A stretch of 63,961 nucleotides of DNA, filler included, from Collodictyon triciliatum (taxonomy: Eukaryota), in assembly GCA_043381765.1 (NCBI GenBank). It is 6 parts of 6 records of this genome, joined end to end, with 100 filler letters (N's around TTAATTAATTAA, not from the genome) between each part and the next. Parts side by side here need not be neighbours in the genome. Positions count along the whole stretch, not along the records: positions 43,145 to 57,417 come from JBHJMP010001846.1; 5 more parts are not named here. One strand, 5' to 3'. Positions within the stretch are counted from its first letter, which is position 1, and the number at the start of each line of letters is the position of its first letter. The notes under the pieces were generated by a model. That model was given only the letters and a program-made list of their open reading frames with translations. It searched no databases and was not told where the DNA came from. A program made the position numbers and the translations under genes. Positions 14,288 to 61,257 of this stretch are shown here, piece after piece.

Positions 14288-14387
14288 NNNNNNNNNNNNN
14301 NNNNNNNNNNNNNNNNNNNNNNNNNNNNNNNTTAATTAATTAANNNNNNNNNNNNNNNNNNNNNNNNNNNNNNNNNNNNNNNNNNNN
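14288..14387. other. Artificial scaffold-joining spacer (44 N + TTAATTAATTAA + 44 N)
   Basis: Six-frame-stop linker, identical at five positions in the window. Confidence 0.97.
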
Positions 14388-28668: not shown

Positions 28669-28768
28669 NNNNNNNNNNNNNNNNNNNNNNNNNNNNNNNN
28701 NNNNNNNNNNNNTTAATTAATTAANNNNNNNNNNNNNNNNNNNNNNNNNNNNNNNNNNNNNNNNNNNN
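28669..28768. other. Artificial scaffold-joining spacer
   Basis: 44 N + TTAATTAATTAA + 44 N. Confidence 0.97.
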
Positions 28769-43044: not shown

Positions 43045-43144
43045 NNNNNNNNNNNNNNNNNNNNNNNNNNNNNNNNNNNNNNNNNNNNTTAATTAATTAA
43101 NNNNNNNNNNNNNNNNNNNNNNNNNNNNNNNNNNNNNNNNNNNN
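43045..43144. other. Artificial scaffold-joining spacer
   Basis: 44 N + TTAATTAATTAA + 44 N. Confidence 0.97.
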
Positions 43145-43146
43145 CA

Positions 43147-44090
43147 CAACTCCTTCGTGAGGAGCTGGAGCCGTTCAGACCGTCCCACGTAGATATAAAA
43201 AAGGACAAAGGCTTCTTCACAGACATAGCCGTAGTGAAGCTTCTTTGCCACAAGAACCAGCTCCCTGCAAAGTTTACATTCATGACAAAAAAGTGTCCAA
43301 AGCGCATCCTCAAATAGCTTCCACCAGCCGCGAACAACGAATGACAAGTAAAGCTCCACAAAAGAATACAACCTGCCAAGCAGACAAGCAGCAACGGGGT
43401 CAAGGAAGCCAAGGCCAGGCGACAACATCAGAGTCCGCATGACTCACAGCAGATACGCGCATACAGCGACAGCGACGATGACATGGAAGGAAATCTCGGT
43501 TCCTCTTCAGAATCCTCGCCCTCGAGCCCTTCATCGCCAACGCCGGACAAGCCCGCACATCGCAAGACCCAAGAGCAGCGCATCTCCAAACCCCGAATGA
43601 AATCCCCCTTAAACTATCCATTCAGACTGACGTGAATATGGTTAACATAGGAGGCATCAAGGCAGTCATTGTTACTTATCCGAAAGGATACTCCCAAGCG
43701 AAGGCAACACAAGAACCAGCGCCCACCAAAGATAGTCCGTTTCCCCTGCCCCAGCCCGTCGCACAGAGAACCAAGGAGCAAGAACAAACAGCACGAGTCT
43801 AATCCAAGCTTGGAACTTCACACACCAAAGACATTCCAAGCAAGCAGGAGCGTATGTTTCTAAAAACCACAAGCGCGCATCCATACCCCGGTAAAGCAAA
43901 GACCACTGCCGGCTACGCATGGTTCCAAAACCAGGGGACGGTCAAGCGCCACTTCCGATAATACCAGACAAACAACGATGTATCGCTTTTTGTCAGAATC
44001 TCCCGGCAAGAAACGCAAGGAAAGTGACCCGTTGTCCCTCAAAAGACTCATCCTGTGGAATGAAATAGGATGTAAACCTTGTCCGAGATA
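43147..44090 (+). pseudogene. Possible decayed, intronless coding fragment (weak resemblance to a non-LTR retrotransposon ORF1)
   Basis: QLLREELEPFRPSHVDIKKDKGFFTDIAVVKLLCHKNQLPAKFTF, then S/P/K-rich sequence broken by stops, ending LKRLILWNEIG. Pattern resemblance only. Confidence 0.22.
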
Positions 44091-44708
44091 GACAGTTGAA
44101 AGGACTCGTTGGAATCGATTTTAGAAGCAACTGCCATGTGCGTACTTTCATCGACCCGACAACTTTATCCGCTCTTCTGTCAGTCTCGAATACAACCAGA
44201 AATCGCGTTGGAGCTGATTCACCTCGGGTAGAATGGTCTGCGTGTGAGAACACTTTCTCTCCTTTCTATTTTTTTTTTCTTTTTACCCAAAACACAAAAA
44301 CTCCAACCACACAATCCGGGGGTTTCATTTGCCTCACCCACAGCTAATTATTGTCTTAGAGGCGAGGGCAGTCTCCTCGGCTTTGCTCTTTTCCACAAAT
44401 TTTATTTGCCTATCTTACAAATGTTTGCCTCCCCTTGGTGGACTACAACCACCATAACTGGCCGCATCGTTTTTTTCCGGTGCACTAAAATGGAAGCAAA
44501 CCCTATCGGAACTGAAAAGTAAAATAAGAGGAAAAAATTATCAACTTGCAATTAGCAACAGATTTAGGCGCGATATTGCTATTGTTTCATACCTCTGACT
44601 TGCAAAAAGGCTGGATGCAATCAAAAAATGTAAGATTTATGGTGATGATACAATCTCTAATTTTGCAACGATTCTTCTTTTCATTCCCTCAATCTTCCAC
44701 ATTCTAAT

Positions 44709-47700
44709 TTATTTTCTCTGAAATGATGTGCTCCAGTCTATGACAATCGGAGCCTTTGCAGAGGATTTGGCGAGGTTGGGCTCGTCAATTGCTGTTCGGG
44801 AGATTTGCATGTACCTCGTCCACGCTTGTGGATTGTCTTCGTCCTGTCATCAGATAGTGAACAGGTCATTCAGTAGCAGCAAAGAATTGAATGACCATGA
44901 ATTCAATGAGGGTAGTTCATTTCTTGTGCATATTGTTTCCTTATGACCCATTTCAATCCCAAAAAACAAGGATGAGACATTTAATCTCACTACAAACAAA
45001 TACATTGGGTAAGGATATTACAAAGTCGTCCTCAACTTCGCTCAAGGATGTCAGAGAGTCGTCGCTATCTACTGGGTGATTACCCAACGCGGTTCCATCG
45101 CTGTCCTCAGAAGCCTCCACCCCGCTGGATGCATCAGAATTTTCCTCCTCTGACAGCAGGTCTCGATCAGTATTCAATTGGGCATGTAGTGCTTCCTTTG
45201 CGATATTTTTTGCCTTGGCCCCTCGCTTTTTCTGCAGTGGTGTTTTTTTGAGCTCAAAACAAGAGTATAGCAAATTTTACGAGGAGGCATAAAACCCAGA
45301 TAGATTTGGAAACGTTTTTCTTCATACAATGGCTCACATTAAAAGCGAAACAAAGTGAAAAAAAAGTGAAAAAAGAAAGAGAGAAAGAAAGACCTTCGTG
45401 ATAGAACGAATAGCCACCAAGGTAGGTCTAAGTGATAAAGGAACACATGAATCACTGGATAGTATTTTAAATCTAATTGCATTGGCCATCAAAGCTAAAT
45501 GGATTTTTTTTTAATATTTAAAAAACGAAACACACATTTTTCTTTTCTTTGCTTTTTTGCACGATGGAGCCGACGTTCTCATTTCCTGTATTTCATCAGT
45601 TTCTATACGAAAAGTAAAACACCAAAATAAATTTTGATTATCTGCATTTTATTTACATATTCTCTGATTTTGATGAAATTACAATATGTACCGCGAGCAT
45701 AATAGAAAATAAAATAAAATCAGGAAATGTAGGTATACACAGATGACATGTACTATTATACCTCTTTGTATTTCTTCGTTGGAATCAAAAAGGTGATAAG
45801 CTTCTTGGACATATTCCATGTAATTTGTGAGTTTGCCGTGGCTGACGATAAGGGGGTTCAAAAGTACCCTTAAAATATCGTGTTGTGCTCTAATACAACA
45901 AGCCAATCGAGTAAATATACGACATAAAGAACAATACATAATAGCCATCAAAATGGTATTTACGCAAGATTGGGACCCTTCATGGATTCGATGAGCGATG
46001 ATACGACCGATAAGGCTTCATTTGAAATATGTAGAAACCCGCATACAACGCTGACATCTAGATGCACCACGAGAGACATAAAATGCAAGTGTAAAAGCTG
46101 ATATTAATAGAGAGTAGACCATGACCAGAGAAGCCTGAAGCAATGGGTAATGATAAATCATTTTCCAATTTTAAGGTCTGGCTGAGTTCTATCATGCATT
46201 CGTTTTTTTAGAGATATTCTAGCATATATGAAAACGACTACTAGACTAGGACGGTTTTGTACCTTTTGTAGAATCAGGATGAGACACAACCCTAAATATG
46301 TCCTTTAAGGTTGTGTAAAGATATTGAAGAATGATGACCGACCCGTGAGCAAGATTTCGGCAAACTCTGCGAACGAAGGACTCGTCGGTTATGATATTAT
46401 CCAACTGCCTTCCTTGGGAATGCGCAGTCCTTTGCTGTCTGGTTTTTTCACGGTGCTCTATACTTGAACTTTCTTTTGATGTGGGTTTCTGTCTCGGTGA
46501 TATCAGCCTCTGGAATACTCCGAAAAGTTTTTCATAGAGTTCGAATAAATATTTGTGCTCTTTGTAAGGATTGCTTTTGTCAAGGTCAGTGATTGTTTCC
46601 ATCCATGCGATAATCAAGCATCTTGTAAATTCATGAAAGAATGACTCAAACGTTTCATAATTCAGGAGATAAAACTGGTGGTGTTCCTGGTAACAGAGGA
46701 AATAAAGTATAGTGGTTCAGATTCTCTGGTCCAAGGTCATCCTCTGAAATACATGCAATCGGGATGTATGAAATACATCTATCAACCATTATCGTTCATA
46801 TGACATCCGCGATGGGAAAAAAATCCAACAAATATTATATCTTGAAATTAAATGAATAAATATACATCTGCTGATGAATCCAAAAGCTCTGCTAAAATAT
46901 CGATGATTTGATCAAGGGCCTGAAATGTTATTAAATTTTTAATTTTTCAAATTATAGTATTAGAGGATGTAAGAAAAAACCAAAACGAAAAAAAAAAAAA
47001 AAAAAGGCAAATCGACCCAAACGCCGTGTTTTGGGAATTTTATGCGTTTCGTTTTCGTTTTTGTTATTGTTATTTATTTATATGTGTTTCGTTTTCGTTT
47101 TCGTTTTGATTTTTGTTTTGTTAAAAAAAAAAAAAAGGTAACCTTTAGAAGGCTGGAGCGGCTGGAGTTCACAAAAAGGATTGTTAAAAGATAGGAGCAG
47201 CACTTGGACAAAGGTGTATCCTAGGTAAAAATAAAAATAAAAATTAGTATAATTATTATGTCCATCACGAATTAAGACTAGAAAGGAATTAGAATGATGG
47301 CCAATTGCACTGAAAAGGCTGTTCATTTCATACATTAATTTTTCGATTAATCATATAGAAATGCATACGACTTTCCATTTGTGCACAACATATTTCCTTG
47401 CTCGGTAAAGATCTTAACCAATTTTTTAAAAAGGAAAGACAAGAAAAGGTCAGGTCAATAGCTATACAAAGAGATTTCTTCCAAATAGCAGTTGTTTTTT
47501 TTTATCTAAAAAAACAAAACAACAACAACTACATCATTTACCCTGGTGCAAATTTCCATGGAACCAGCTGGCATCAGAGAAGTTGACTTGAGGCAGAAGC
47601 TAGTATGATGTGAATTAATCGGCCAATATGACATATGATTTACGTTTGATGGTGAACTTGTATCAAGTTACTAAATGCTTATACAAGCATTACAAAAGTT

Positions 47701-50700
47701 GGCATATTACGTGGAAATTATTAGCTGAGTAGGGGATGACAAAAAGGGTCTTCAATAATGACCAAAGAACACGCGAAACCTATTTTTCATTTTACAAATT
47801 TGTTGAAAAATTTACATGAGTGGATTGGGTTATTGTAAAACAAAAATTATTTTAGCTGCAAGAAAGCATCCACACAAATAAAAGATAAGGTATTTTGGAA
47901 TTGCAAACTATGGACCTCTTCGTGGTGTCTTGGCTCCTGTGCTATCAGGTGCATGATGCCCAAAGACATGCACGCTCCTGCTAAATCCTCACTAGACCGC
48001 ACTTGTTTTTCAAAAAAATCCAAACACTTGTCGATGGGATTACCCGTATCCTGATCGGTAAAGTGTTGTTATACATGAAACAAAATAAAAAATAAAAAAA
48101 TTCTCCCAAATCAAGAAAACCAATAAAAAAAAATTAAAATATAATTCAGATGTAAATCGAATAGATTTGAGAGAGAGGAAATAGAGACATAATATCTGAT
48201 TTCATACTAAAAGAAAGAGTCCTTGGCACAACTTGGCCACTGTAAGCAATCCATCCGAACCGTTCGTCCTGGAAATACCTGAGCTAATCCTTTTTTTCAC
48301 ACACATATTGAACGCCATCGTTAAAATGCCGAGAATGCTCCTATCAGTATCAAGACTCCATAAGTATCCCTCCTTTTTTTTTCAGGTTTGGAATGTGGAA
48401 TGAGGAAATGGCCCGTTGTGTAGACATCATGTTTTTCCTTTATATTTTTCATTCTTTCATAATTGCATACCATTTGATAGCAAAGCTGGCATTCAAGCGG
48501 TCGGTAATAACGATTCTTTCATCGTCCTAGATTAAAGAACTTTAGGCCAAGCGTCAACAGAGAGCAAACTATAAAACCCATACTGATTTTATTCCGATAG
48601 TGGACCTCATTTCAATGCTGGCTTTGTGATGAAACTCGAGAAAACGCATCAAGGCTCCACACAAGCTCACCTTTTTTTTTTAAAAAAAAAAATACGCATT
48701 ATTCGATGTGAAAATAGTTTATCAATAACCACAAATGACTTAGGCCGAACCCAGCCGAAAAAAAAAAACGCTTTTTAAGCTGCAAATATTTTAGCCCTAA
48801 TTTTGGGCGGAGAAGATGAATGATTTCATGCGATGTAGAATTTAAGATAAAATAGATGCAACAATGACCATATCGCTTTCTTGCTGTTGACTAGGTTTCT
48901 CACGAATGATTTTTTCAATACTAAACAATTGCGAACTAGAGCAGAAATCCGTCATATTTTTGAGTATTATAAAAACATCCTTAATTAAAAAAACCTTAAC
49001 CAGGTGAAATCACTTGATATCAAGATAAAAAGAAAACCTTTGTAGACCAATCACACTCAATGAGTGGTACTGCTGAATGACGCTTATAAATGGGCGAACG
49101 TAGAATGCAGGATGGTTATAGTTTAATGACCCACCAAAATCCCTACAATCAATATATATATATGATTTTTAATCATAAAGAAATATTCTACTGTGTGCTA
49201 TTACATATGAAAGTTTGATGATTATCCGAATAACATAGAAATGTGAAAGGGAAATCAGTGATTAAATTATGACATAGGCCTCGCTTTATCTCTGAATCAA
49301 ATGTTAAACATCAATGCAGACATATACAAATATATGTATATAACTGGTACATGGACGAGGTTGGTACATCTACGATTAAGTGGATGTTTTGGATTATCCA
49401 GGTGTAGAGCCCCATTAAAACTTTGTTTATAATAGAGCCAAATACCAATAGATTTATAGTTTTTGGGAAGGCTGCGATAAATTTCTATACAGATAATATC
49501 AAAATAAATTATTAATTACCAAGTCATTCGAATTCAGTTCGTCATCTATTTTACCTCAATGGCGTAGAGTGAAAATGCAGCATAGATGAAGGAATTCTCT
49601 TTGCATGTTTCAAACGAGCTAAATGTATATGAATATGATTCCCCTTTTCAATAGCTAAAATCGAATGTCTAAAAAAAAAAAGACAAGAAAAAGAACCTTG
49701 TCGATGTTTCTCCTCCTCTGGACACTTGTATTGCACTGGTGTACAAACAAAAAGTCACATAGTACCTGAGCAGCACTCCTGAGTTTTATTTTTGGAGGTA
49801 AGATATGATGCAATAAAAAAAAAAGGATAAAATTGCATTGACACAAAGATCAAACGTTACATTTTGAACACACTTCTGGTTTACAAGAAGAGTTTTACTT
49901 TATTTTATTTTTAAAATTGAATGCATGTCACCTGATAAGTAATCTATAGACTCCCTCAATTCTGTTTTTTCGAAATTCCTTAGCGATTCAACCATCGCTT
50001 CAATGTGATTCTGAATAAAGCCCAAATCCTCAAGTAAGCCACTGTAGCTTTCCTTTCCTTGCCTCTTGGTAGGCTTTACGTTCTCTGAAGGAAAACTCAA
50101 TGATAATCCACAAAACCATTCATGAAAGTCTGATGGCTGTCAGGGAAGAGGATTAAATCACTAAATTGAATATCAATTATGAATTCCAACAAGGAACAGA
50201 AAATCATGACATTATGATAAAAATAAAGGAATTTATTTTCAACTTAGATAAGACATGCTATTACGCTTAATTGTCTGGACTTTATTGCAAGGAGGCAACT
50301 GTATGAAATATAAAGTGATTATTGGCAATTTAATCAATCCTATGATAAACCGAGTCGATAAAAATGAAAAAACTCTTTCTTTGTTGTTTTGGACTTGTTC
50401 TCACCAAATTAAATAAAGAGAAAGAAAGTAGACGCTTTTTAGAATTTTTTTTAATACTTTATGTTTTTGTAAATGGATTCCAGTTCGTTTTCAGACTGGA
50501 GTATGTAAATAATGTTTATTTTAGCTGTTTCCTTCATGAAGAAGACAGCAGATCTAGGTAAAAAATAAATAAATAAATTGGATCATTGAAAAAAAAAACA
50601 GAAATTATAAAAATACACGATTAAATATACCGAACAGTAGACTACGATACATACATTTTTGGAGTGGATCTGTCCGCGGGGAAAAGCGTGTGGACTTTTT

Positions 50701-53700
50701 GCTCCCTATTCAATTGCATTATAAAAATACAAAGTGTAATGGATTGAAATGATGCCTTTATTCCATACTAATTGAACTACTGGCATTTATTTATTAGAAT
50801 AATAAAAGAAAACTTACTCAAATATTTCCTCATCTATTTTCTTTGAGTAAGCCAGCTTATGGCTCAAATACACTTCAATGACATTCTTTAGAATCCCATC
50901 CATATTATCCTTCAGATTATCAATAGAATAATTTCCAAGCCATTTTTTAAAAAAAATATATCAGTGGATATGGTAAAGAATGCAACTATATTCTATGTTT
51001 ACATCAATGAACGGTTAAAATTATTCAGAATATCTACTTCACTGAGAACTTCGATGTTATATTCTACTAAGTCAAGAATAATATTGTTCACGTATGGATC
51101 TGATATCTGAGCTGAGAGAAAAGAATATTGAGGTTATCATCCGTTTTATCTCGATCGTCGAAAGGAGCGAGCGTGAGTAATGGACTTTTTGAAAAACTCA
51201 CGCATTTGACATATGGCGTTGACAATAATATGTGCTTCATCATCTGAAACCACGCTTTGGTGGAGAAGATGGCAGGCAGAGATGATTCCTATCATTTTAT
51301 ATGATAATAACATTTATTTAACTCATATAGTGAATGGTTCAACGCAATTAAAAAAATGAAACCTGAACGCAACGAATCCATTTGGGATGAGAATAACTTT
51401 TTTTGAATATAAATCATAAAGGAATGTTGAAGATTGCTCTCCGGCCTAGTAAAGCAACACACTGCAGTATAACCAGCAAGAATTATGAAGGGTGATGAGA
51501 AAACTGAAGACACGATGAATAATTTTGGTCCAATTTCTTCATATTATATGCCTCATATTTTCCTACCCGAAAATACATGAAAAAGTCTGTGAAGGAGAGA
51601 AATCTGCAAACCATCTACATAATGTAATGTTTCTTCTAGTATATGCCTATGAAAAAAAAGGTTTGACACGATTTCATTTTTATTTGTCTATCAAATGGCG
51701 TGATAAGAAATTGCACGAGGGAGATGAATATCTATTTTTTGGAAACGAATAACGATGAATTGGTAACGCTTACACGCAATCAGCAAGCTGCTCAGTATGG
51801 GACTTGCATATTCTCAAAAGACACATGGATGCGGAAACTGCACTGCATACAAACTTTCGACACTGATCTACTTCTTTTGTTGTCCAAGCACGCTCCAGGT
51901 TTCTTTGATGATTTTCAGAACATGAACATATGCATCAGGCATACAAACTTGGATGAATTCTTTTGTGTGTTTTTAAAAGGGCATGAAGCTAACCTTTCTT
52001 CACTTGACGGACAGTTCGTTATATGAGACAACAATGTTGACAAAATCTTTTTTAAAAAAAAAAAGAACAATAATTTAATAATAATACTGAATTGGCACCG
52101 TAACTAAAAGAACAAACTATATCTAGGGTGTGCATCTATTGAAGAAGAAATCGAGAGAGAGAAAAAAACAACCATATGTCTTGTCTCTGGATAATAGACG
52201 AATATGACATCCATCATGATGACAGGGAGATCTGAGTTCCCTTTCGAAAGAGATATTCGATCCAGAAATTGGCTAGCAAACTGAACGCAAGTGTCATTTC
52301 GGAACTCGGATTCAAGATATAACTGTGTTCCTAGTCTTTGTGTTTGTTGAAATTTTGAATTCGGCAATGGGATAGCGCAAATGTAATTGATATGAAACTT
52401 GACATTTTCAACATAGCTTTGCCTGACCACCAACATCACTGTTGCAAAAGTTAGAATTCAAGTATTGAAATAAATGTACGTACTGGATGGCTTTATGATT
52501 TAGTAAATCGTACTGAAGAGCTCTTACCAACACCTGCGTTACTAATTTCCTTTCTATTTTTTTTATAAAAAAAAAACATATAGAAAATTGTGAGATTATA
52601 CTACTGATTGGTCCGCAAAATATCTATTTTGAATGAACAGCCATATTAAATGTACATATCTTTGTTTCGTATGCATGTACCTCTTGTCCTTGAATACAGG
52701 ACCATCACAACTGCAAAGTCCATAGGGATCCAACCAGAATACCTGAGAAAAAATGGTGTAATATTAGTGAGAAATGGTAAAATGTAAAAAAAAAAAAAAA
52801 ATTATCAAGTGTACAAGAACTATTAGTATTAGCAATTAATATGCTTGGTTACGTACCTTTGAAGACTTTGGTAAAAGGATTGAACTAATGCGCCCAAGGA
52901 GATGGGGAAAAAATTGATAAATAAACAGGCATGTGTATCAATGCGGTAGGTAATCGTAAATTCTCTATATCAGTTTTTACCTGCTGAATTGTTTGACCGA
53001 AATGATGAACAAATGACTTCAAAAATCAGTGGATTTGAATCCTAGTATGACAGAAATTGTAACTCAAGTAAGAGAGTTTAGTATTTGAAAATATAACTAT
53101 ACCAAATTCGCTTTTTCAATATGCCTCCGAATAAAGTCGATTGTGTTTGGATTAGCCTCTATACAAGAAATAATGGTAAAAAAAAATTAATCAAAAGGCG
53201 ACGTTTAAAATATCCAACCAACATCATGGTTTGATTAAATTTCAAATAATATTAACTGCTTCTCAGTGTTTTCAGAAGGCACGATACTAGAGCTGGTAAA
53301 TCTGATTCGTTAACCACATCAATCGATCCCTGGGTAAGAAGAAGCAAGAAAAAGAAGAGAAAAAGAGGCACACGAACGAAATTTTTAACCAATAGATAGT
53401 GTAAAATATAGTCATCTTTGGAATGAAATTCCATAATTATCAAGATTAAGAACAAATGAGCAATTTAATTTTTCGAAACAATTAACTCCCGAATACCTGG
53501 ATCAAACTCATCACACGGTTCTTGGAAAAAAATTAGAAAAAATCAGAAAAAAAATCGAGTATGATTGAGTTAAAATGAAACACGTTTTACAACTAACAGG
53601 GTTATTCGCCCTTCAATTTGTAAACATTTCGGTCGAAATATATATCTTTGGTACACTCCAGTTGGACTCATTTAAAAGAGATGAATAAGAACCTCTAGTC

Positions 53701-56700
53701 GGGTGGGGAGTGAAAGTTCAGACAGGCACCCAACGACAGGGACAATGAGACTACGGTCTCTCTCGATGATTCCCTCGAGTATTCTGTGGGCTTTGGTTAT
53801 CTACGAGCCAGTTAGGCTGAGAGTAAAGAAGGGGAGACATGTACTCATGGATTGGAGTTAGAAATAAAACCGATATAAGGACATTAGTAATTATAATACC
53901 TCATTCTCTGGTGATATTTGCATAAAGAATGGAACATGGGGGATGAACACATCAGGCCGGCTAGAACATTCGAGGAGTTCCAAGAACTATGCACACAAGG
54001 GTGTTTCATGTAAAGAGTCAGTGAAGGATAGACTTGTGTGGCGCATACAGCAAACAAAGTATGGCCTCTTTCTTACTGTTTGGGATATCCGGGGGTGATA
54101 TGCGAAATGGACGCAAAGCAGCCTCACAAGCGTGTTTACTTCATCCATATCGGAGTCGATCTCTGACTGAAGTCGAACAAGTATTGCACATGCCACGTCC
54201 ACCTGAGCCATGAGGACAGGAAAAGACACCAGGATATAGCAAGGGCGTTTTCAGATTAAGAAAGGAAAAGGAAAAGGAAAAGGAAAAGGAAAAGGAAAAG
54301 TAAAAGTAAAAAAAAAAAGAAGATCAGACAAGACAGAAGACAAAAGACAAAAGGAAATGAAAAGTACATGCGTCTCTGCGCTCTCGAGTAGCGGCACACA
54401 CAACTCTGCAACCACGCCGAAGCCTTCCGTCAGAATCCAGTCTGTGGAGACGCTCATTCCTTCACTGCCTGAGCAACAGAGAAAGGTTCAAGTCTGCTGT
54501 GCATACCTCGTGCCGTCTTGACATGGCACAGCAGCCTCCAGGAAACTCATTTAAAAATCGGTTATGTTTTATTCATGTTTTATTTACTAGAGGCAGTATA
54601 CCACGGAAAGATTGGTAAGCCTGGTTCGCTAGTACCCAAGGTCTCACCACATTTTTCAAAAAAGATTGCGTAGTGGTGAACGCTGCCAGGAAAGACCCGA
54701 CAGCCTGTTTTTTAGAGGAAGGTGTATGCATATTTTGAAGGATTAAAAGAACTTTGTTGAGTATATTCTTAGCGCTGTTTAAGTCCCTTGTCAAGAATGC
54801 ACTTTGTTTGCTTTCTGAGCGATTGCATTCTTTACATATGAGACATCTATACACACTTTTTTGAATTTCCTTTCGGTTTCACATATTCCAGTTCTTTTTC
54901 GCAGTTACAGCACATCTTGGAGGTTCTAAATTTATTTACACTCACTGATATCAAAACGTTTGAATAGTATTTTTCGTAATCCTCTTCTGATTGTTGGCTT
55001 AAAATGTTTCATCGGAGATTTTCTGCTCCAGTCTCCATACACCAGTACAACATCCTTGCCAAATGTCTTTTCGATTCGGACCATAAACAACTGTTCACTT
55101 TTTGTATTAAGATACTGTCTTCATCTCATCTTTCGAAAAGTGATTTGTTCGTAAAATCTGGAAAATTCTATCTGGTATATTGATTTCATGGATACATATT
55201 TTCGGAATTGTTCATAATCGGCCGTGCATGAATTATGTTTACTCAGTCCTGTCTCTATATCGATTAAAGATACTCTTGATGTATCAAACTGCTGATTTTC
55301 TTCTTAAGTCCTGAGACCAAAAGAAACAGCACTCTGTAAATCTGTTTTCATCTATATCCCTGAATTATTGTACTTTTTTCTTTTTTTTCTCGCACAAGTA
55401 TTTTGTGATTTTTAAGAGATTTGTTATCGTGTCTTCTTTGGTGTGCCGTGTAAAGTAATTTCTTACCTGTCTCATCCACCATGTAAACAAAATTACACTT
55501 GCATGAGTCCACTACAACTATTTTTTTTTCGCTAATAAAGATAACTGCTCTTCGGAGAGTTCATGTATAAAGAAACATATTTGGGGTTTTTTGATTTATT
55601 TGTAATTTGAATTTGAAATACCTTTCTTTTCAAACAATAATGACACCGCCAAGCCGTCCGTTTGTATCATGTATTTAAAATTGTAGTCTCTTCGATGAAA
55701 GACCCTCTTCTTCATTTCAAAGAACTTATACCATAGTTTCTCTTTGCATCCTGATATGTTCTTCAGTAATGATATTTTCCAGACAATACTAATAGATCTA
55801 TCAAACATGCAGTATCTAGAGTAAAATGACATGGTATATTGTTAGTTCTTATAGGAATTCGTTGAAACTTTTGGTTCCAATGTGCTCAAAAATGGGATTC
55901 ATGTAAATCAGACATGGTGCGCACTTCTTTGGATTGACTTTGATATCATAATCGATACCATTTACAATATCGCTGGGAATGATATGATGCAAATGCGTTG
56001 TAGCCCATCCTTTATATTGTTCCAGTATTTCGAGATTATTGAAGATGACCTTTTTTTAACTTTCGTATCTCTGCCTTTTTAATAGCTTCCGTAATATTCC
56101 CATCTATAGGAACTGTTTGATTTATAAAGCGCAGTAACCTCTTTACAAAATGCTCCCTAATGTTATTATGATAAGCTGTTAACATTTACTTCGCCAAGTA
56201 CTGTAATACATGAGACAGCCTAACCAACGGAAAGCGATCTTCTCGGGACAAAAGGAATCGAAAATCATTGAGATAAAAAGTCATCATGTCTTTACTCATA
56301 TCTGGTTTTTTAATCATGCGGATCTATCTTGTGAAACTATTCCGACTGTCTTTAAAGTGAACAAAAAAAAAAACTTTCATTTCATCGATTGTTGGGAGTT
56401 GTGATTTCAATATGTGACATCTTGCAAACAGATGAATGCCGGTAATCAAATTATGACACAATAAAACCGTATCGTTGATTTTGCCATAATCATCCGCATT
56501 CTTTACAATCGACTTTAGAGATGTTTTCAGATTTCGATAGTCTGGGTTTACAGACTTTAGATTCTCAGACTCAAGACGTTTTCTTTTCTTCATCTGAAAA
56601 TCTTTGTTTTACTTTTTCCTTTAGAAAACTACCGAGTTTTGAATTTTTATAAAACTTTAGTCAATCAGTCAATTTAATAAATAATTTTAAAAATAACTGC

Positions 56701-56889
56701 ATAAAATAAATTATGTAAAACTAGGCATCTACCGAGACTCTCAAAATGTGCGCGTTGTTGCAAACAGACACACAAAGTTTTTTTTATAAGTGATTTGAAA
56801 CAAAACGCTGAGAGCTGATTCGGCGAGTTCGTAAGGACAGCGGTATTGCCATTGCGACTGAAAGTCAACATATCGGCCCCAAACAACAT
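44709..56889 (-). CDS. FANCD2: Divergent Fanconi anemia group D2 protein homolog (many exons; first inferred intron interrupted by a mobile element)
   Basis: Colinear blocks resemble FANCD2 as I recall it: LTFSRNGNTAVLTNSPNQLSAFLEAAV, NTLVRLLCVHFAYHPRI, IIERDRSLIVPVVGCLSELSL, SIDVVNESDLPALVSCLLKT, IPMDFAVVMVLYS and QHSFMIYIQKKLFSS..GIISA (cf. HLVIRKQLSS..GIIGA). Acidic C-terminus; stop at 44709-44711. Further upstream exons are possible. Confidence 0.66.
54567..54704 (-). ncRNA. Candidate Fanzor omegaRNA (three-stem scaffold plus a flank-derived guide of about 20 nt)
   Basis: On the - strand, just after the Fanzor C-terminus: stem 1 GCTGTCGGG/CCTGGCAGC (54682-54704), stem 2 TCACCAC/GTGGTGA (54644-54679), stem 3 CTAG..AGGC..TACCA/TGGTA..GCCT-CTAG (54587-54632). 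The position matches TnpB/Fanzor omegaRNAs. Confidence 0.55.
54587..56793 (-). mobile_element. Non-autonomous Helitron-like element carrying Fanzor1 (2207 bp)
   Basis: 5' end A|TCACTTATAAAAAAAACTTTGTGTGTCTGTTTG. 3' subterminal hairpin TACCA..TGGTA, 8 nt, then CTAG|T. No TIRs and no Rep/Hel domain. Excision restores a 54-nt GT..AG intron and the host reading frame. Confidence 0.62.
54705..56593 (-). pseudogene. Fanzor1 (eukaryotic TnpB-like RNA-guided endonuclease), disrupted by frameshifts and stops; original stop position uncertain
   Basis: Ordered motifs: NLS MKKRKR, YRNLKTSLKSI, LQYLAK*MLTAYHNNIREHF, FQRIPIRTNNIPCHFTLDT, FKYMIQTDGLAVSLLF, RuvC-I IVVVDSCK, YTAHQRR, FRKMR*RQYLNTKSE, FGKDVVLVYGDWS, PTIRRGLRK, VN(K)FRTSKMCCNC, CKEC, RuvC-III TRDLNSAKNI. 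Confidence 0.92.
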
Positions 56890-57312
56890 GATTACTGCCG
56901 CGAGTTTTGACAGTATGCTTTTTGAAATGCATGTTTGGTGGCAGGTTTACAGAGTGGGTTCTGTCTGGGTCAAAGCAAGGGCTTGTTTGCAATTTTTGAA
57001 TTTTTAAGCGATAATATTACATAAATGAAAATAAAATATAAATTGATTACAGGAATAGAACGAGATTATTGGGTATTTTTTTAACCTTACTATATACTAA
57101 TAATACTACTATATTATTCAAGTTGTTTCTTGGATTCATCAAATTTCCTGCTTTTGTCAATCAAGATTTAATTCGATGGTTGTCTGTGCAATAAATTGTT
57201 ATCTGCAGGTACACTTTCGTTGTATGAAAAGTTTGTGCCTTGAAAGGGGTAAAGCCAAGTTCGTCACAACCTTTGTAATTAAGTTTATCAATTTACAGGC
57301 TGAATGAGACCG

Positions 57313-57417
57313 AAGAGAAAGGAAAGAGAAAGGAAAGAGAAAGGAAAGAGAAAGGAAAGAGAAAGGAAAGAGAAAGGAAAGAGAAAGGAAAGAGAAAGGA
57401 AAGAGAAAGGAAAGAGA
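57313..57417. repeat. 11-bp tandem repeat (GAAAGGAAAGA)n at scaffold end
   Basis: Directly visible. Confidence 0.9.
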
Positions 57418-57517
57418 NNNNNNNNNNNNNNNNNNNNNNNNNNNNNNNNNNNNNNNNNNNNTTAATTAATTAANNNNNNNNNNNNNNNNNNNNNNNNNNN
57501 NNNNNNNNNNNNNNNNN
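57418..57517. other. Artificial scaffold-joining spacer
   Basis: 44 N + TTAATTAATTAA + 44 N. Confidence 0.97.
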
Positions 57518-61157: not shown

Positions 61158-61257
61158 NNNNNNNNNNNNNNNNNNNNNNNNNNNNNNNNNNNNNNNNNNN
61201 NTTAATTAATTAANNNNNNNNNNNNNNNNNNNNNNNNNNNNNNNNNNNNNNNNNNNN
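61158..61257. other. Artificial scaffold-joining spacer
   Basis: 44 N + TTAATTAATTAA + 44 N. Confidence 0.97.

What the first reader, a model, noticed from the sequence alone, without database searches (positions are those of the whole stretch)
54567..54704. Candidate omegaRNA whose last stem doubles as the Helitron terminator hairpin
Seen: three consecutive GC-richer stems follow RuvC-III in otherwise AT-rich DNA, and they include G-U pairs that work on the - strand. The third stem contains the TACCA/TGGTA hairpin and closes exactly on the terminal CTAG. The stems are intact although the ORF is badly decayed. Inference: one sequence serves both as the rolling-circle termination signal and as the guide-RNA scaffold. 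It is in sense orientation within a host intron, so it could still be produced from FANCD2 pre-mRNA.
Basis: partly seen in the sequence, partly recalled or inferred. Interest (0 to 1): 0.8.

Follow-up and report, generated by a model that had tools for sequence, protein, structure and literature searches.

The report
Decayed Fanzor gene's folded 3' tail
The folded stretch sits at the tail of a dead copy of a Fanzor RNA-guided nuclease gene, where such genes keep their guide RNA, but nothing shows that it is also a Helitron transposon end.

Summary
The stems exist. On the - strand, 54567-54704 folds into three stems (-40.3 kcal/mol, z -3.27) and the + strand folds less well (z -1.45). They follow the RuvC-III motif of a badly decayed Fanzor1 gene.

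No second copy could be obtained, so conservation and the element's end are untested.

The nearest relatives with DNA are 160 loci, mostly from giant-virus-like contigs, 41-50% identical in protein. They carry a covarying RNA module that overlaps the ORF end. It ends in a ~24-nt terminal inverted repeat flanked by TA, and one locus has a DDE_3 transposase. These are Tc1/mariner-type elements, not Helitrons.

A covariance model and HMMs built from these relatives do not detect the window's tail.

The strongest fold (54521-54658, z -4.29) pairs the "terminal" CTAG with sequence beyond it.

As single-stranded DNA the supposed terminator is unremarkable (z -0.07). CTRR+T sites with such a hairpin upstream occur 57 times in the window.

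FANCD2 could not be confirmed.

Verdict: plausibly an eroded omegaRNA/right-end region of a dead Fanzor1 element. The Helitron dual-use idea is unsupported. Low interest.

The parts
54640..56593 (-). Decayed Fanzor1 (TnpB-like) pseudogene. The ATG is at 56593-56591. The 3' limit near 54640 is inferred from the tail length of relatives.
   Evidence: Piece 54932-55303 hits solved Fanzor1 of Parasitella (E 1.3e-4) and Spizellomyces (E 0.069). The N-terminal frame hits Guillardia Fanzor1 (E 2e-4). Exhaustive phmmer found 929 relatives at E<=1e-3, the best 55% identical. Frame changes and in-frame stops are seen.
54765..54788 (-). RuvC-III motif (RDLNSAKN), preceded by TSKMCCNC ... CLICKEC zinc-finger motifs
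   Evidence: Translation. The HMM of relatives' last 100 residues aligns tail residues 5-62 at 43.7 bits, E 1.2e-15.
54682..54704 (-). Stem 1 (9 bp, 2 G-U). It lies inside the ancestral coding tail.
   Evidence: fold. One search shows protein homology reaching 54693.
54643..54680 (-). Stem 2 (8 bp, 1 G-U). It sits where relatives have their covarying hairpin H2, but homology is not demonstrated.
   Evidence: fold. Searches show H2 in relatives. The tests were negative.
54585..54634 (-).
   Evidence: This stem is replaced by another pairing once sequence beyond 54567 is included.
54522..54605 (-). Long imperfect hairpin with many G-U pairs. The 5' arm is about 54605-54582 and the 3' arm about 54546-54522. 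It crosses the CTAG.
   Evidence: z -4.29, 0 of 200 shuffles. The + strand gives z -1.29, 24 of 200. It was the best of 190 scanned windows.
54546..54556 (-). An 11-nt match to the right-end motif of relatives, lying just before the 3' arm of the long hairpin. It is not significant.
   Evidence: RE-only HMM: -0.9 bits, E 0.53 in 361 nt, and better chance hits exist elsewhere in the window.
54491..54537 (.). GC-rich inverted repeat (12 nt arms, 92% complementary) that competes for the 3' arm of the long hairpin
   Evidence: pair I21
57310..57417 (.). CT-rich microsatellite and then an assembly linker. The element's 5' side cannot be followed past here.

Best explanation
The stems are the 3' tail of a dead Fanzor1 (eukaryotic TnpB-like) gene: its last codons plus the non-coding stretch after them. 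In this protein family that region encodes the omegaRNA scaffold, which overlaps the ORF end and runs to the transposon's right end. The stems are therefore most likely the eroded remnant of that scaffold and right end.

Shown:
- The gene is a decayed Fanzor1.
- The tail folds better on the - strand.
- Intact relatives have a covarying RNA module at this position, and it ends in a TA-flanked terminal inverted repeat.

Inferred:
- The window's stems descend from such a module.
- The element runs past the CTAG, perhaps to about 54522.
- With no intact nuclease in cis, the RNA has no present function.
For: - Fanzor1 identity.
- Strand-specific fold: z -3.27 against -1.45, and z -4.29 against -1.29 for 54521-54658. 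The latter was the best of 190 scanned windows.
- Structure in relatives: on 52 aligned sequences, 91.1% of cells pair against 84.0% in shuffles (0 of 500 reach it). The covariation score is 0.218 against 0.103 (0 of 500), and slid controls reach at most 0.111.
- Ends of relatives: a TIR partner was found in 14 of 15 loci examined, 11 of them perfect over 24 nt. Of these 14, 13 are flanked by TA on both sides.
- Protein homology reaches into stem 1.
- By the tail length of relatives, about 46 residues from the RD motif to the stop, the ancestral stop falls near 54640, between S2 and S3. This mirrors relatives, whose H1 and H2 lie in the ORF tail and whose H3 holds the stop codon.
Against: - No statistical link between the window's tail and the relatives' RNA. 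nhmmer gave no hit. CM R1 gave no - strand hit at 54520-54710 with E<=10, whether over 3.8 kb or over 281 nt. The right-end HMM gave E 0.53. The 24-residue tail HMM gave no hit.
- No TIR partner for the candidate right end was found in the window.
- Fold significance depends on the frame chosen: z -0.78 for 251 nt and z -1.60 for 365 nt.
- No other copy, no RNA data and no intact nuclease are available.
Confidence: 0.5

Rival explanations
1. The stems are chance or composition-driven structure. A locally GC-richer patch between an AT-rich pseudogene and a GC-rich downstream segment (possibly a host exon) folds well by accident, and the stems have no history as an RNA element.
For: z depends on the frame chosen (-0.78, -1.60, -2.68). 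All homology tests against the relatives' RNA were negative. A competing GC-rich inverted repeat lies just downstream.
Against: 54521-54658(-) has z -4.29 with 0 of 200 shuffles as good, and it is the top window of 190. The asymmetry between strands comes from G-U pairs. The position matches where the family keeps its RNA.
Confidence: 0.3
2. One reading: the element is a Helitron ending at CTAG (54587). Its subterminal TACCA/TGGTA hairpin is the rolling-circle terminator and at the same time the last stem of the omegaRNA.
For: CTAG followed by T, with a 5-bp hairpin 8 nt upstream, is present. Fanzor1 genes in non-autonomous Helitron2 elements with a conserved 3' RNA are known from Chlamydomonas (PMC3627910 and PMC10530073, passages read).
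Against: As ssDNA, 54580-54650 folds at chance level (z -0.07, 88 of 200) and the MFE does not contain that hairpin. 57 of 383 CTRR+T sites in the window have a WC hairpin of 5 bp or more upstream, and this one has 5 bp with 2 G/C. No family reached E<=0.1 in the 10 stop-to-stop ORFs of 90-156 aa picked from 56.7-63.9 kb or E<=0.01 in two read-through frames of 43.2-57.4 kb; ORFs in the parts of the window I listed are short (the latter cut). The nearest relatives with defined ends are TA-flanked TIR elements, one with DDE_3. The strongest RNA fold pairs the CTAG with downstream sequence.
Confidence: 0.05
3. The element is a Tc1/mariner-type element like its relatives. Its right end lies beyond the CTAG, near 54522, and the long hairpin corresponds to the relatives' terminal helix, whose 3' arm is the inverted repeat.
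For: The order of parts is the same as in relatives: 5' arm, spacer, the short A/T-rich motif, then the 3' arm at the end. The 11-nt motif match lies directly before the 3' arm.
Against: The motif match is not significant. The CM gives no hit. No inverted partner exists anywhere in the window. No TA lies at the proposed end. ORF 56744-57016(-), which I suspected of being a transposase remnant, has no Pfam hit.
Confidence: 0.2

Closest known systems
Fanzor1 omegaRNA of Spu-1 elements (SpuFz1), Saito et al. 2023, PMC10432273 (passages read)
   Same: The RNA is encoded at the 3' end of the Fanzor ORF, next to or including the right inverted repeat. Protein-less 'ghost' copies keep it. The window's stems sit in the equivalent place.
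   Different: In Spu-1, expression, protein binding and guide function were shown. Here there is a single decayed copy with no conservation data, no RNA data and no defined end.
Tc1/mariner-type Fanzor1 elements of giant viruses and protists (Bao & Jurka 2013, PMC3627910, passages read; loci L001-L160 here)
   Same: These are the closest proteins with known context (41-50% identity). Their RNA module overlaps the ORF tail as proposed here.
   Different: They have perfect ~24-nt TIRs and TA flanks, and L008 has a DDE_3 transposase. None of these was found in the window, and their RNA model does not match it.
CRe-1/2/3 = CrFNuc-1 loci: Fanzor1 in non-autonomous Helitron2 elements of Chlamydomonas (PMC3627910; PMC10530073, passages read)
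   Same: It has a Fanzor1 inside a Helitron, with a conserved, expressed RNA from the 3' UTR/3' end of the element that forms an RNP.
   Different: Helitron identity there rests on end homology to verified Helitrons and on many copies. Here nothing beyond a CTAG and a weak hairpin points to a Helitron. Their supplementary figures (S6) could not be seen, so I cannot say whether the hairpin/scaffold overlap was already drawn there.
IS200/IS605 TnpB omegaRNA and right end (recalled background; PMC10690162 seen only as a search listing)
   Same: It shows the general principle that the transposon's right end and the guide-RNA scaffold are the same DNA.
   Different: It is prokaryotic, with an HUH Y1 transposase. 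No comparison of sequence or structure was made here.

Membership tests
Fanzor1 (eukaryotic TnpB-like nuclease) | Sequence similarity to characterised Fanzor1 proteins across the RuvC region | tested here: met
   Solved Fanzor1 chains were hit at E 1.3e-4 (Parasitella), 0.069 and 0.0062 (Spizellomyces) and 2e-4 (Guillardia). 929 relatives were found at E<=1e-3.
Fanzor1 (eukaryotic TnpB-like nuclease) | The motif D ... [TS][TS]xx-C4 zinc finger ... RD (Bao & Jurka 2013, read) | tested here: met
   VVVDS..., TSKMCCNC ... CLICKEC ... RDLNSA are visible in the translations and align to relatives. Pfam Cas12f1-like_TNB is only weak (E 0.036).
Fanzor1 (eukaryotic TnpB-like nuclease) | Intact open reading frame | tested here: not met
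   Homologous pieces lie in frames 1, 0, 2, 0, 1, 0, 2, with in-frame stops.
Fanzor/TnpB omegaRNA | Encoded at or overlapping the 3' end of the nuclease ORF, on the same strand | tested here: met
   The stems lie at 54585-54704(-). ORF homology reaches 54693.
Fanzor/TnpB omegaRNA | Scaffold ends at the transposon's right end, with the guide just outside | tested here: inconclusive
   The right end is not defined. The candidates, 54587 and about 54522, have no support from copies. There is no TIR partner and the motif match is not significant.
Fanzor/TnpB omegaRNA | Structure conserved with covariation among copies | not testable with these tools
   There is no second copy in the window, no genome is held, and the read-laying tool was lost. 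Only relatives' modules could be tested.
Fanzor/TnpB omegaRNA | Recognisable by a model of the relatives' omegaRNA | tested here: not met
   CM R1 and the HMMs give no hit on the window's tail. The relatives are only 41-50% identical in protein, so this test is weak.
Fanzor/TnpB omegaRNA | Expressed and bound by the nuclease | not testable with these tools
   No RNA data could be laid.
Helitron (canonical) | Rep/helicase gene, or ends homologous to verified Helitrons | tested here: not met
   No family reached E<=0.1 among the 10 chosen ORFs from 56.7-63.9 kb, or E<=0.01 in two read-through frames of 43.2-57.4 kb. Only part of the window was scanned. No Helitron reference ends were available for comparison.
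Helitron (canonical) | 3' CTRR with a stable subterminal hairpin, inserted before T | tested here: inconclusive
   CTAG followed by T is present, with a 5-bp hairpin (2 G/C). The ssDNA fold has z -0.07. 57 of 383 such sites in the window carry a hairpin at least as long.
Helitron (canonical) | 5' TC end after a host A, with no target duplication | not testable with these tools
   The 5' side runs into a microsatellite and an assembly gap at 57310-57517.
Tc1/mariner-type Fanzor1 element | Terminal inverted repeats flanked by TA; DDE transposase in autonomous members | tested here: not met
   Relatives meet this. In the window no inverted partner was found and no transposase domain.

The most novel reading that the evidence does not exclude
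In this eukaryotic lineage a Fanzor1 of the giant-virus/mariner clade was captured by a Helitron-like rolling-circle element. The element's 3' terminator hairpin became the last helix of the guide-RNA scaffold, so one hairpin would be read both by the HUH transposase as DNA and by the nuclease as RNA. This would parallel IS200/IS605 in eukaryotes.
Probability: 0.05. Interest if true: 0.6.

Novelty: new member of a known kind. Interest (0 to 1): 0.15.

Why it matters
[quoted passage not shown] As it stands, this is one more fossil Fanzor1 copy. Its modest value is that it marks a eukaryote-resident lineage related to the giant-virus mariner-type Fanzor1 elements, whose RNA module and ends are well defined in the loci fetched here.

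Tried and rejected
- **Second copy in the window:** self-BLAST found none, and a repeat search gave only microsatellites.
- **Whole genome:** none is held.
- **Sequencing runs:** only small shares (0.16 or less) were listed, and no RNA holder. There is therefore no read evidence of any kind.
- **Rfam:** only a chance-level hit, E 0.81.
- **Word-based homologue searches:**
  - The 123-aa piece found nothing.
  - The tail ORF found 7 short fragments. The closest, P0156, is 90% identical over 30% of the query and ends before the stems.
- **Viral scan with the tail ORF:** 21 pattern matches, none confirmed.
- **Homology of the tail to the relatives' RNA or right end:** all negative. This includes my own eye-alignment of stem 2 to the relatives' H2 and of an 11-nt motif to their right end, so I keep these only as unproven parallels.
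- **Transposase remnant at 56744-57016(-):** a suspected Tc1-like fragment has no Pfam hit.
- **Inverted repeats between the two sides of the gene:** nothing convincing.
- **FANCD2 or any host-gene identity:**
  - No Pfam hit (only 2 of the 3 - strand frames were scanned).
  - No PDB hit in 3 frames.
  - No homologue for ORF 46249-46716.
- **Earlier notes of this scan:** none for this genome or sequence.
- **Fold scan:** the first attempt timed out and was rerun smaller.
Full report
**What is at the site**

The window is a draft eukaryotic scaffold with N44-linker-N44 joins. The contig holding the finding runs from 43145 to 57417.

A Fanzor1 (eukaryotic TnpB-like) gene lies on the - strand from 56593 down to about 54640.
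- The piece 54932-55303 matches solved Fanzor1 proteins: Parasitella E 1.3e-4, Spizellomyces E 0.069.
- The N-terminal frame matches Guillardia Fanzor1, E 2e-4.
- An exhaustive phmmer search found 929 relatives at E<=1e-3, 130 at E<=1e-10 and 1 at E<=1e-30. The best is 55% identical.
- The zinc-finger and RD motifs of the family are readable and align to relatives.

The gene is dead. Its homologous pieces lie in frames 1, 0, 2, 0, 1, 0, 2 and carry in-frame stops. One apparent intron turned out to be an in-frame stop plus a frameshift in an A-run, because the read-through frame continues to match relatives.

**The observation**

- 54567-54704(-) has MFE -40.3 kcal/mol, z -3.27, with 1 of 200 shuffles as good.
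- The + strand has z -1.45.
- The G-U pairs and the locally higher GC (0.492 against 0.34 upstream) are as described.

The signal depends on the frame chosen.
- A 251-nt context gives z -0.78.
The window 54521-54658(-) ranks first.
- With 200 shuffles that window has z -4.29, 0 of 200 as good. Its + strand has z -1.29.
- Its fold is a long, G-U-rich hairpin. The CTAG region (5' arm about 54605-54582) pairs with 54546-54522.
- The same hairpin appears in 226-nt and 365-nt folds (z -2.68 and -1.60).

**Where the gene ends**

An HMM of the last 100 residues of relatives aligns the window's tail ORF from residue 5 to 62 (43.7 bits, E 1.2e-15; the envelope reaches residue 81). Residue 62 is at 54693-54695, inside stem 1.

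Relatives have about 46 residues from the RD motif to the stop. That puts the ancestral stop near 54640. Stems 1 and 2 therefore lie in the old coding tail, not after the gene. This is inference from length, not a significant alignment.

**Relatives and their RNA**

No closer DNA could be obtained. Short ORF fragments 67-90% identical exist on contigs of 513-629 nt (P0009, P0036, P0102, P0156), which shows the family has other decayed copies somewhere. Their DNA could not be fetched, and P0156 ends before the stems.

*Loci with flanks*
- 406 of at least 598 pattern matches in metagenome contigs were confirmed, and the best 80 were kept (42-50% identity).
- 367 of 465 matches in viral contigs were confirmed, and the best 80 were kept (41-48%).
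- Many lie on large, low-GC contigs, and the viral collection's own names mark them as giant-virus bins.

*The shared 3' module*
- In 71 of the first 80 loci, the ORF had one of the usual C-terminal endings and at least 150 nt followed the stop. In the 60 of these that I printed and read, the last ~60 nt of the ORF and ~95 nt after it form a conserved module, after which the copies diverge.
- 75 of the 80 loci had the end motif. Of these, 73 were distinct and 56 were kept after a redundancy filter. I aligned 52 and dropped L040, L047, L058 and L068 as length outliers.

*Test of a hand-drawn structure (H1-H5, 31 pairs) on those 52 sequences*

| Measure | Observed | Shuffled | Shuffles reaching it |
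|---|---|---|---|
| Cells paired | 91.1% | 84.0% | 0 of 500 |
| Pairs changed on both sides | 16 | 8.8 | 0 of 500 |
| Covariation score | 0.218 | 0.103 | 0 of 500 |

- Slid controls reach a covariation score of at most 0.111.
- The apical hairpin H5 was poorly aligned (50-60% paired).
- These sequences are related to one another, so the shuffle control overstates significance. The slid control is the fairer one.

**What kind of element the relatives are**

I chose 15 long loci and searched upstream for the reverse complement of the last 24 nt of each.
- 14 had a partner: 11 perfect and 3 with 2-3 mismatches. The fifteenth locus starts inside the ORF.
- 13 of the 14 are flanked by TA on both sides, and one by TC.
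- The span between the ends varies from about 2.35 to 5.5 kb.

In L008 the element also holds a DDE_3 transposase with an HTH domain (E 1.3e-13, 51.4 bits, cut-off 28.6).

These are Tc1/mariner-type TIR elements, as Bao & Jurka described for viral Fanzor1 (PMC3627910). The 3' arm of the module's long-range helix lies in the right inverted repeat. Earlier notes of this scan on other genomes say the same of giant-virus Fanzor1 elements. I checked that claim independently here on different loci.

**Does the window's tail belong to that module?**

No test shows it.
- nhmmer with the module alignment gives no hit there.
- The covariance model R1 (145 positions, 31 pairs) gives no - strand hit at 54520-54710 at E<=10, over 3.8 kb or over 281 nt.
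- A right-end HMM scores the one visible 11-nt match (54546-54556) at -0.9 bits, E 0.53 in 361 nt, and finds better chance hits elsewhere.
- A 24-residue tail HMM does not pick the tail ORF out of 1254 ORFs.

What remains are parallels of layout only.
- A hairpin sits in the last codons (S2 against H2).
- A hairpin has a TAG in its 5' arm (S3 against H3).
- The short motif lies directly before a terminal 3' arm (long hairpin against H4).
- An apparent 12-nt in-frame extra segment would create S1.

At 41-50% protein identity a negative RNA model is weak evidence against common descent. It leaves the claim unproven all the same.

**The Helitron claim**
- CTAG followed by T, with a 5-bp hairpin 8 nt upstream, is present.
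- As single-stranded DNA, 54580-54650 folds at chance level (z -0.07, 88 of 200), and the MFE omits that hairpin.
- The window has 383 CTRR+T sites. Of these, 57 have a Watson-Crick hairpin of 5 bp or more in the 32 nt upstream, and 12 have one of 6 bp or more. Such a site within about 150 nt of an ORF end is expected roughly 7 times in 100 (my arithmetic).
- No Pfam family appears in the ORFs upstream or in two read-through frames of the contig.
- No 5' end can be sought, because the sequence runs into a microsatellite and a gap at 57310-57517.
- The nearest relatives with defined ends are not Helitrons.

Fanzor1 in Helitron2 elements, with an expressed RNA from the 3' end that forms an RNP, is already published for Chlamydomonas (PMC3627910; PMC10530073). 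The Fanzor-Helitron parallel with IS200/IS605 has been discussed (PMC10432273; PMC13565253). I found no passage stating that the hairpin and the scaffold coincide, but I read passages only, and supplements were closed.

**'Stems intact although the ORF is decayed'**

Without a second copy, 'intact' has no reference. My rough estimate is inference, not a computation. About ten disabling lesions in 1.9 kb suggest a few per cent divergence. That implies only one to three changes in the ~50 paired bases, some of which would give G-U pairs. The observed G-U pairs and the internal loops of S3 fit neutral decay, so no selection need be invoked.

**Host context**

FANCD2 was not confirmed.
- Pfam found nothing.
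- phmmer against solved structures found nothing in three - strand frames.
- A homologue search with ORF 46249-46716 found nothing.

A stretch at about 54375-54470(-) looks like an exon with a good acceptor, by eye only. If it is real, the element lies in the upstream intron in the same orientation and must end before about 54490. No RNA evidence could be obtained.

**Verdict**

This is most likely the eroded omegaRNA/right-end region of a fossil Fanzor1 element. Its true 3' limit is unknown, and the strongest fold runs past the CTAG. The Helitron dual-use reading is not excluded but has nothing in its favour beyond a common short motif. It is a new member of a known kind and of low interest.

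Noticed in passing
window 54522-54605 (- strand): A long G-U-rich hairpin is the most structured 138-nt stretch of 190 scanned (z -4.29 on the - strand, -1.29 on the + strand). It joins the Fanzor tail to the GC-rich segment downstream.
   Followed up: partly
L001-L160, e.g. L005:1184-6698, L041:4356-6698, L077:2201-6704: Giant-virus-type Fanzor1 elements are bounded by perfect ~24-nt TIRs and TA. The span between the ends is 2.35-5.5 kb, so the cargo beside the nuclease varies.
   Followed up: partly
L015:4436-4681(+), L005:4319-4666(-): Two kinds of small ORF sit just upstream of the Fanzor gene in the relatives' loci. One is an 81-aa lysine-rich coiled-coil-like protein (weak bZIP_1, E 0.0025). 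The other is a 115-aa C2H2 zinc-finger protein (zf-H2C2_5, E 1.9e-4). Both scores are below the Pfam cut-offs.
   Followed up: partly
window 54681-54692 (- strand): Compared by eye with relatives, the tail has about 12 extra in-frame bases whose sequence pairs with the bases just upstream to make stem 1. This could be a foldback-type insertion, but it is not supported statistically.
   Followed up: partly
P0009, P0036, P0102, P0156 (short contigs of 513-629 nt): ORF fragments 67-90% identical to the window's Fanzor pieces show that other decayed copies of this lineage exist in public assemblies. P0156 reads the same bases after RuvC-III in another frame.
   Followed up: partly
window 14288-14387, 28669-28768, 43045-43144, 57418-57517, 61158-61257: Five identical assembly joins consist of 44 N, a 12-base three-frame stop linker and 44 N. 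Sequence continuity across them is not established.
   Followed up: no
window 54250-54345 and 57310-57417: CT-rich microsatellites lie on both sides of the ~3-kb block that holds the Fanzor copy. Such arrays are common throughout the window, so this may be chance.
   Followed up: no
window about 54375-54470 (- strand): An exon-like stretch has a pyrimidine-rich acceptor and an open frame. It was judged by eye only and no database match was found.
   Followed up: partly
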